Part shown: positions 3,001-4,231 of the stretch, one piece after another | How the letters are laid out: each line of letters starts with the position of its first letter | Numbering within the stretch: the first letter of the stretch is position 1 | Made by a program: the position numbers and the translations under genes | Notes under the pieces: generated by a model | The model's database searches: none | Told to the model about the DNA's origin: nothing | Seen by the model: the letters and a program-made list of their open reading frames with translations, nothing else | Assembly: GCF_009914755.1 (NCBI RefSeq) | Contig: NC_060928.1 | Source: the human T2T-CHM13v2.0 reference genome, Homo sapiens | Direction: 5' to 3' (one strand) | Length of the DNA stretch: 64,000 nt

Positions 3001-3968
3001 ACACCTTATACAAAAGTCAATTCAAGATGGATTAAAGACTTAAACGTTAGACCTAAAACCATAAAAACCCTAGAAGAAAACCAAGGCATTACCATTCAGG
3101 ACATAGGCATGGGCAAGGATTTCATGTCTAAAACATCAAAAGCAATGGCAACAAAAGACAAAATTGACAAATGGGATCTAATTAAACTAAAGAGCTTCTG
3201 CACAGCAAAAGAAACTACCATCAGAGTAGCAGGCAACCTACAAAATGGGAGAAAATTTTCTCAACCTACTCATCTGACAAAGGGCTAATATCCAGAATCT
3301 ACAATGAACTCAAACAAATTTACAAGAAAAAAACAAACAACCCCATCAAAAAGTGGGCGAAGGACATGAACAGACACTTCTCAAAAGAAGACATTTATGC
3401 AGCCAAAAGACACATGAAAAAATGCTCATCATCACTGGCCATCAGAGAAATGCAAATCAAAACCACAATGAGATACCATCTCACACCAGTTAGAATGGCA
3501 ATCATTAAAAAGTCAGGAAACAACAGGTGCTGGAGAGGATGTGGAGAAATAGGAACACTTTTACACCGTTGGTGGGACTGTAAACTAGTTCAGCCATTGT
3601 GGAAGTCAGTGTGGCGACTCCTCAGGGATCTAGAACTAGAAATACCATTTGACACAGCCATCCCATTACTGGGTATATGCCCAAAGGACTATAAATCATG
3701 CTGCTATAAAGACACATGCACACGTATGTTTATTGCGGCACTATTCACAATAGCAAAGACTTGGAACCAACCCAAATGTCCAACAATGATAGACTGGATT
3801 AAGAAAATGTGGCACATATACACCATGGAATACTATGCAGCCATAAAAAATGATGAGTTCATGTCCTTTGTAGGGACATGGATGAAATTGGAAATCATCA
3901 TTCACAGTAAACTATTGCGAGGACAAAAAACCAAACACCGCATGTTCTCACTCATGGGTGGGAATTGA
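100..3968 (+). pseudogene. L1 ORF2p (EN-RT-CCHC) broken by a stop, frameshifts and a NUMT insertion
   Basis: Consecutive ORF2p fragments at 100-405, 894-2354, 2578-3288 and 3366-3968. Confidence 0.95.
2426..2495 (-). pseudogene. NUMT: 70-bp fragment of mitochondrial MT-CO1 (approx. m.6148-6217)
   Basis: Reverse complement TAGTTCCCCTAATAATCGGTGCCCCCGATATGGCGTTTCCCCGCATAAACAACATAAGCTTCTGACTCTT translates in the vertebrate mitochondrial code as [22 protein letters not shown], the conserved COX1 segment around Asp91. It replaces the L1 consensus bases GACCTCTTCAAGGA. Confidence 0.96.
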
Positions 3969-4231
3969 ACAATGAGAACACATGGACACAGGAAGGGGAA
4001 CATCACACTCTGGGGACTATTGTGGGGTGGGGGGAGGGGGGAGGGATAGCACTGGGAGATATACCCAATGCTAGATGACGAGTTAGTGGGTGCAGCACAC
4101 CAGCATGGCACATGTATACATATGTAACTAACCTGCACAATGTGCACATGTACCCTAAAACTTAAAGTATAATAATAAAAAAAAAAATTAAAGGAAATTT
4201 ATGTATGCATTCTGATTTCAACCAGCTACAA

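What the first reader, a model, noticed from the sequence alone, without database searches (positions are those of the whole stretch)
3781..4000. 220-bp identical tract shared with the L1 32 kb away: likely ectopic gene conversion across a MAPK10 exon
Seen in sequence: 3781-4000 is base-for-base identical to 35807-36026. The flanks differ at about 9 sites in the 240 bp upstream and about 9 sites in the 90 bp downstream, where the two copies carry different subfamily diagnostics (GCTAGATGACGAGTTAGT versus GCTAAATGACGAGTTAAT). Within the tract both copies share four bases that depart from the L1PA consensus as I recall it (3904 A, 3916 T, 3919 G, 3956 G). Both therefore end [10 protein letters not shown]...SLMGGN, whereas the third copy at 46.8 kb has the usual IILSKLSQ...SLI. 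Inference: non-allelic gene conversion between neighbouring same-orientation L1s. A second identical stretch (3366-3543) may be another tract.
Basis: partly seen in the sequence, partly recalled or inferred. Interest (0 to 1): 0.75.

Follow-up and report, generated by a model that had tools for sequence, protein, structure and literature searches.

The report
L1 copies trading patches in MAPK10
Two old LINE-1 jumping-gene copies 32 kb apart inside the human MAPK10 gene share an identical 220-base patch with three very rare bases, likely because DNA repair copied one onto the other, and one of them shares a second patch with a copy 434 kb away; this is a known process, here likely seen several times in one gene.

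Summary
3781-4000 (L1 copy A) equals 35807-36026 (copy B) exactly. A and B are separate insertions of different 5'UTR type, about 3.4% apart elsewhere. They share three alleles that are rare genome-wide: 3904A (12 vs 9,643 copies), 3919G (21 vs 6,476) and 3956G (91 vs 13,540). The 26-mer haplotype occurs only in these two copies. Length alone is weak evidence, 3916T is ordinary CpG decay, and 3366-3543 has no rare shared allele. Non-allelic gene conversion, likely B to A, is the best explanation. New here: A 3453-3903 matches an inverted L1 434 kb away in MAPK10 (copy D) at 450 of 451 bases with four shared rare alleles. A 164-bp tract at the ORF1 start likely went A to B. 3593G (0.9% genome-wide) sits in A, B, C and D. 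A also holds a short mitochondrial COX1 insert, and a published L1 repair event (NCLI34) lies about 94 kb away. The exon between A and B is not converted. No ape or second human assembly could be checked. A known process with a clear multi-partner example; interest modest.

The parts
1..4186 (+). L1 copy A, 3' two thirds of a full-length (~6.07 kb) element that starts about 1,885 bases before the window; lacks the ~129-bp 5'UTR segment; young-type 3' end; ORF2 broken
   Evidence: imperfect 16-bp target-site duplication at L033:4100-4115 and window 4185-4200
3781..4000 (+). Tract 1 in A (likely acceptor): identical to B; rare alleles 3904A, 3919G, 3956G; smallest certain extent 3904-3956
35807..36026 (+). 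Tract 1 in B (likely donor)
3453..3903 (+). Tract 2 in A: 450 of 451 bases equal to copy D (G000:C4:89903400-89904123, minus strand, 434 kb away, inside the MAPK10 span); shared rare alleles 3567C, 3593G, 3618C, 3679G; one A-only base at 3654
31546..36266 (+). L1 copy B: keeps the ~129-bp 5'UTR segment, old-type 3' end, 1.55-kb internal ORF2 deletion near 34821-34832, nested in an older L1 with a 17-bp target-site duplication (31529-31545 and 36267-36283)
32467..32630 (+). Tract 3 in B (likely acceptor): 164 bp identical to A (L033:4908-5071, before the window); B carries the A-type base 32598A and the rare 32608C
46613..47751 (-). L1 copy C, 5'-truncated, inverted relative to A and B; shares only the rare allele equivalent to 3593G
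3366..3543 (+). 178-bp identical run with B (35392-35569); no rare shared allele; not established as a tract
2429..2485 (-). Mitochondrial COX1 fragment inserted in A in place of about 10 L1 bases (repair scar; side finding)
22788..22957 (-). MAPK10 coding exon (170 nt) lying between A and B; unaffected
   Evidence: hub annotation; length

Best explanation
The two L1 copies share an identical 220-base patch with three genome-rare bases, likely because a germline DNA break in copy A was repaired by copying from copy B without crossing over (non-allelic gene conversion), long after both had inserted. Shown: the identity, the rarity of the shared alleles, separate insertion of A, B and D, and normal divergence outside the tracts. 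Inferred: a break or nick in one copy, strand invasion into a ~96.5% identical L1 on the same chromosome, a few hundred bases of synthesis, and return (SDSA-type repair). Direction of tract 1 is inferred as B to A (about 75%). It likely happened more than once: A and D (434 kb, inverted; direction unresolved), A to B at the ORF1 start, and some short or early exchange that put 3593G in four copies. The tracts lie in dead intronic L1s and are most likely neutral.
For: Haplotype only in A and B. Allele counts 12 vs 9,643, 21 vs 6,476, 91 vs 13,540. 0 of 666 unlinked panel pairs share 3 or more rare alleles, while A-B and A-D each share 4. A 62-mer of A matches exactly only A and D genome-wide, with one more place at 1 mismatch. 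Mosaic of subfamily markers: copies with A's 3' type carry G,G at 3922/3944 in 1 of 41, copies with B's type in 31 of 50, and A has G,G. At 32598 B has A, while 19 of 19 aligned copies with the 129-bp segment have G and 20 of 20 without it have A. D's own 3' part has 7 rare alleles in 267 bases, so D is old, yet the shared tract differs at 1 of 451: the copying came long after insertion. Tract sizes fit a published mean of 250 bp (bioRxiv 10.1101/135152, abstract). 6 of 7 shared rare alleles are A/T to G/C against 155 of 364 in the panel, P 0.027, the direction of bias reported for such conversion.
Against: One haploid assembly only; no ape orthologue, no reads, no second human. Run length alone is weak (in a panel that included tract-selected copies 13 of 97 pairs reached 220). 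Direction is not certain: an early long B-to-A exchange could also have given A its old-type bases (3409G, 3741C, 3922G, 3944G), which would leave the direction of the latest event open. Tract 3 rests on one rare allele (121 vs 3,008) plus one type marker. The link to C rests on one base. The GC-bias test was made after seeing the data and is small.
Confidence: 0.85

Rival explanations
1. Same copying, but templated by RNA or cDNA of the partner copy (for example read-through in MAPK10 or MAPK10-AS1 transcripts) and not by chromosomal DNA.
For: All four copies lie in one transcribed gene span, and A and B are sense to MAPK10-AS1 (hub annotation). cDNA-mediated conversion is described for yeast retrotransposons (PMC6598467, section read). 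A to G and T to C changes dominate the shared alleles.
Against: Partners are in both orientations and include a 724-bp promoterless fragment (D). Template switching at insertion is excluded by D's age against the 1-in-451 difference. DNA-templated repair explains the nearness of the partners without extra steps.
Confidence: 0.07
2. Assembly or polishing error: reads of one L1 overwrote another.
For: Tract 1 has zero differences. No independent sequence was available to check.
Against: Three tracts, two partners, both directions. Tract 2 contains an A-only base (3654A, 0 of 66 panel copies) between shared alleles. Long reads span a 6-kb L1 into unique flanks (own knowledge). A similar long-range event in this gene was seen in an earlier assembly and is reproduced here.
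Confidence: 0.05
3. Shared ancestry from one minor source element, or independent recurrent mutation.
For: Each allele recurs elsewhere singly. One chr2 copy has two of A's three alleles in the 62-mer. Older subfamilies can share many bases that look rare against a young panel.
Against: No third copy has either haplotype. A and B differ in 5'UTR type and 3' markers. Joint chance about 2e-8 for tract 1. The best genome-wide partner of each tract lies in the same gene.
Confidence: 0.03

Closest known systems
Non-allelic gene conversion between Alu copies (reviewed in PMC6598467, Fawcett and Innan 2019; parts 1 and 2 of 4 read)
   Same: Mosaic of subfamily markers within one copy; mosaic of several donors; rate higher between near copies.
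   Different: Here L1, with partners at 32 and 434 kb, beyond the under-10-kb range that review cites for raised Alu rates.
Ectopic conversion among LTRs on the human Y (PMC4921805; passages read)
   Same: Clusters of derived alleles traced to donors; several donors for one acceptor; maximum tracts 14-450 bp; mostly within one chromosome.
   Different: That study used population polymorphism; here one assembly and genome-wide allele counts.
NAGC in human duplicate genes (bioRxiv 10.1101/135152; abstract and section 5 read)
   Same: Mean tract 250 bp; bias to G/C.
   Different: Gene duplicates, not dispersed repeats with about 10,000 possible donors.
NCLI34 in MAPK10 (PMC1920257, Sen et al. 2007; passages read)
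   Same: L1 sequence in the same gene with a 377-bp piece ascribed to gene conversion from a copy on the same chromosome; found here at G000:C4:89375471-89375956 with a 98% partner 1.44 Mb away.
   Different: A different place (about 94 kb from tract 1) and an insertion, not a replacement inside an existing L1; its middle piece is only 85-91% like the window's L1s.
L1-mediated rearrangements, TEMRs (PMC9675761; passages read)
   Same: Young L1PA pairs of high similarity recombine; direct pairs give deletions, inverted pairs inversions.
   Different: Those are crossover outcomes of at most 25 kb; here the flanks are not exchanged.

Membership tests
Non-allelic gene conversion between repeat copies | Donor and acceptor are separate loci of separate origin | tested here: met
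   Own target-site duplications for A, B and D; different 5'UTR type; D's flanks match no unique window sequence
Non-allelic gene conversion between repeat copies | A bounded tract more alike than the flanks | tested here: met
   0 of 220 and 1 of 451 differences, against 47 differing columns of 1,382 for A-B and 18 in 3904-4170 for A-D
Non-allelic gene conversion between repeat copies | Shared derived alleles not explained by subfamily | tested here: met
Non-allelic gene conversion between repeat copies | No exchange of flanks (non-crossover) | tested here: met
   Both ends of A, B and D keep their own duplicated target sites; the exon between A and B is present
Non-allelic gene conversion between repeat copies | One-way transfer shown against the unconverted state (ape orthologue or human haplotype) | not testable with these tools
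   No relatives or other haplotypes are held for this genome; direction inferred from subfamily markers only
Non-allelic gene conversion between repeat copies | Bias toward G/C | tested here: inconclusive
   6 of 7 vs 155 of 364, P 0.027, after the fact
Segmental or tandem duplication | Identity runs on into the flanks | tested here: not met
   Identity stops inside the L1s; unique flanks do not align
Daughter insertion of a source L1 | Daughter matches the source to its 3' end | tested here: not met
   D and B have old-type 3' ends and differ from A after 3903 and 4000
L1PA3-type element after the 129-bp 5'UTR deletion (copy A) versus before it (copy B) | Absence or presence of the 129-bp segment (PMC7110667, passages read) | tested here: met
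   About 128-129-bp offset between the A and B 5'UTR alignments; exact subfamily names not tested against consensus libraries

The most novel reading that the evidence does not exclude
Copy A is a recurrent germline break site whose repair templates are chosen by spatial nearness inside the folded MAPK10 domain. Rare alleles shared between L1 copies are then a fossil record of germline chromatin contacts, readable from a single assembly and reaching hundreds of kb. A rough genome-wide hint: among copies sharing one rare allele, 7 pairs lie within 50 kb outside this locus and chrY, against about 0.7-1.7 expected.
Probability: 0.2. Interest if true: 0.7.

Novelty: new member of a known kind. Interest (0 to 1): 0.36.

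Why it matters
Conversion between repeat copies is known, so one tract is ordinary. The value is in three points. (1) It is a clean L1 case with several partners, both orientations and 32-434 kb range; L1 cases were scarce in my searches compared with Alu and LTR. (2) The same pairing resolved by crossover would delete 32 kb with a 170-nt coding exon (a frameshift) or invert most of MAPK10 (inference). (3) Such tracts make subfamily labels, L1 ages and short-read variant calls wrong at these places, and counting rare-allele sharing against distance offers a cheap way to measure the L1 conversion rate.

Tried and rejected
Run length as proof: rejected, too weak. 3366-3543 as its own tract: not supported. 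A 3593G sub-lineage: the 20 of 89 other 3593G copies fetched fall in both young and old types with mixed markers, so the allele is mostly sporadic; two of them (L102, L111) are much older and align poorly. A 3904A lineage: 9 of 10 fetched copies aligned (L090 did not), none with 3919G or 3956G. The 183-bp A-C identity (3704-3886) has no rare allele and is uninformative. A's 2827G (52 places) and B's 3074G-equivalent (60 places) found no further partner in this locus. NCLI34 as the same event: rejected. Template switch at D's insertion: rejected by age. Literature: 'numt'+'MAPK10' gave one unrelated paper; 'MAPK10'+'gene conversion'+'LINE-1' gave only PMC1920257; searches listed no paper on these tracts. 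The library lacks most subscription papers; NUMT catalogues and the alignment supplement of PMC1920257 were not readable or not read, so the COX1 insert may already be listed. The mouse-cell L1 conversion paper (Tremblay 2000) was seen only as a citation.

Full report
Observation. Window 3781-4000 and 35807-36026 are identical and bounded by mismatches on both sides. The A-B alignment over 2803-4183 has 47 differing columns in 1,382, with 9 in 3544-3780 and 9 in 4001-4086. The tract covers the end of ORF2 and the start of the 3'UTR.

The copies. A is a full-length L1 on the plus strand, starting about 1.9 kb before the window, with an imperfect 16-bp target-site duplication. B (31546-36266, plus) is nested in an older L1 with a 17-bp duplication and has lost 1.55 kb of ORF2. 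B keeps a 5'UTR segment of about 129 bp that A lacks; this deletion arose within L1PA3 (PMC7110667, passages), so B is of the older type. The 3' markers agree. C (46613-47751) is a truncated copy on the minus strand. A and B are therefore separate insertions, not a duplication.

Is the identity more than chance? Length alone says little. The naive expectation is 0.04 runs of 220 or more. Among 37 well-covered copies not chosen on the tract, 0 of 264 young-by-old pairs reach 178 (maximum 163), but 5 of 276 young-by-young pairs reach 220. In a first panel that included tract-selected copies, 13 of 97 pairs of like divergence reached 220. The shared alleles carry the case. Exact genome-wide counts: 3904A 12 vs T 9,643; 3919G 21 vs A 6,476; 3956G 91 vs A 13,540. 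The product, leaving out A and B, is 2e-8. The 26-mer occurs twice, in A and B. The next best of 40 scored places has 3 mismatches. Of the 10 other 3904A copies, 9 aligned and none has 3919G or 3956G. 3916T is CpG decay and adds little. In the panel 626, 37 and 3 of 666 unlinked pairs share 0, 1 and 2 rare alleles, none 3; A and B share 4. Caution: copies of older subfamilies share many bases that look rare against a young panel, which is why the genome-wide counts are the main evidence.

Direction and age. Panel copies with A's 3' type have G,G at 3922/3944 in 1 of 41; copies with B's type in 31 of 50; A and B both have G,G. This favours B as donor. It is not proof, because A also has minority bases at 3409 and 3741, which an early, longer exchange could have brought. 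With four shared changes before the event and none after, it falls in the last 8% (median) to 31% (95%) of the donor's life; at an assumed 1e-9 per base per year it is under about 7 million years old.

More tracts. 3593G is shared by A, B and C, yet has 92 places against 9,985. Among 20 of the 89 other places fetched, the nearest (copy D, G000:C4:89903400-89904123, minus strand, 434 kb from A, inside the MAPK10 span) matches A from D's 5' end (A 3453) to 3903 at 450 of 451 bases. It shares 3567C, 3593G, 3618C and 3679G, then differs at 18 sites in 3904-4170. D is a 724-bp truncated insertion with its own 16-bp duplication. A 62-mer spanning three of these alleles matches exactly only A and D, D is the best other hit for 3545-3700, and D is one of 39 places with 3679G. 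The direction is open; the age is about 1 million years, at most about 5 (same assumed rate). At the ORF1 start A and B share a 164-bp run. There B has 32598A, found in 0 of 19 aligned copies with the 129-bp segment and 20 of 20 without it, and both have 32608C, found in 0 of 39 aligned panel copies and 121 vs 3,008 genome-wide. This likely went A to B. The 178-bp run 3366-3543 has no rare allele; an unlinked copy (L014) is identical there too, as are 3 of 432 young-by-old pairs. How B and C came by 3593G is unexplained: either short tracts (at most 50 bases in B, 72 in C) or an early long exchange.

Mechanism. Shown: bounded tracts, rare shared alleles, intact flanks. Inferred: repair of germline breaks by strand invasion into a nearby similar L1 without crossover, several times, with A involved in each well-supported case. 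Two side facts fit a site with repeated repair. A carries a COX1 fragment (2429-2485, minus strand) in place of about 10 L1 bases; it reads as 22 residues under the vertebrate mitochondrial code and matches Pfam COX1 at E 1.9e-5, below the family cut-off. And Sen et al. 2007 (PMC1920257, passages) report a human-specific L1 repair insertion in MAPK10 with a 377-bp piece from a copy on the same chromosome; I found a matching structure about 94 kb from tract 1, with a 98% partner 1.44 Mb away. Whether this many events is unusual for a 584-kb L1-rich gene was not tested.

Genome-wide hint. In seven complete rare-allele lists, leaving out this locus and chrY, 7 of about 10,550 pairs lie within 50 kb (counted by eye), against 0.7-1.7 expected for clustering factors of 2-5; measured factors on chr1 were 1.6 and 2.7 (the 3593G list was entered as 83 copies, still including D). 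Four of the seven were aligned: one is 97.8% alike over 733 bases and may be a local duplication; three are 90-95% alike, with the allele in identical runs of 40-66 bases. The other three were not checked, so duplication is not excluded.

Known kinds. Conversion between repeat copies is described for Alu and LTRs (PMC6598467 parts 1-2; PMC4921805 passages), with a mean tract of 250 bp and G/C bias in gene duplicates (10.1101/135152 abstract, section 5). A simple test found recombination signals in 1.3-2.8% of duplicated L1 pairs (PMC7827986 passages). My ten searches showed no report of these tracts, within the limits of the library.

Verdict. Real; non-allelic gene conversion at 0.85; a new member of a known kind. 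Interest 0.36.

Noticed in passing
window 2429-2485 (minus strand): Mitochondrial COX1 fragment inside L1 copy A, replacing about 10 L1 bases, with short overlaps to L1 at both ends; best nuclear match is a chr5 stretch at 92% over 71 bases. May be in NUMT catalogues that I did not see.
   Followed up: partly
L165:2972-3457 (G000:C4:89375471-89375956): Three-fragment L1 matching the published NCLI34 in MAPK10; its 377-bp middle piece has a 98% partner at G000:C4:90813872, next best 94-95%.
   Followed up: yes
window 34821-34832 and 33906-33918: Copy B has a 1.55-kb internal deletion with about 10 filler bases, and a 13-base insertion in ORF2; both look like end-joining scars.
   Followed up: no
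L114 and L115 (G000:C1:64249025-64249900 and 64266870-64267742): Two inverted L1 3' ends 17.7 kb apart are 97.8% alike over 733 bases and share many bases rare in the panel: long conversion or local inverted duplication.
   Followed up: partly
L029 and L030 (chr8 77.45 and 77.63 Mb): Two inverted copies 177 kb apart share two rare alleles (equivalents of 3087T and 3919G) but are otherwise about 4% apart; weak candidate pair.
   Followed up: partly
G000:C20:177055 and 204195; C2:55786401 and 55816213; C23:134068423 and 134100547; C3:162266670 and 162285068: Neighbouring L1 pairs 18-32 kb apart that share a rare allele; not aligned.
   Followed up: no
window 30279-31545, 36267-38103, 51232-56815, 59043-60994, 42709-44272: Further older L1 pieces, 68-88% alike; longest exact match among them 61 bases (52697-52757 with 60514-60574).
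   Followed up: no
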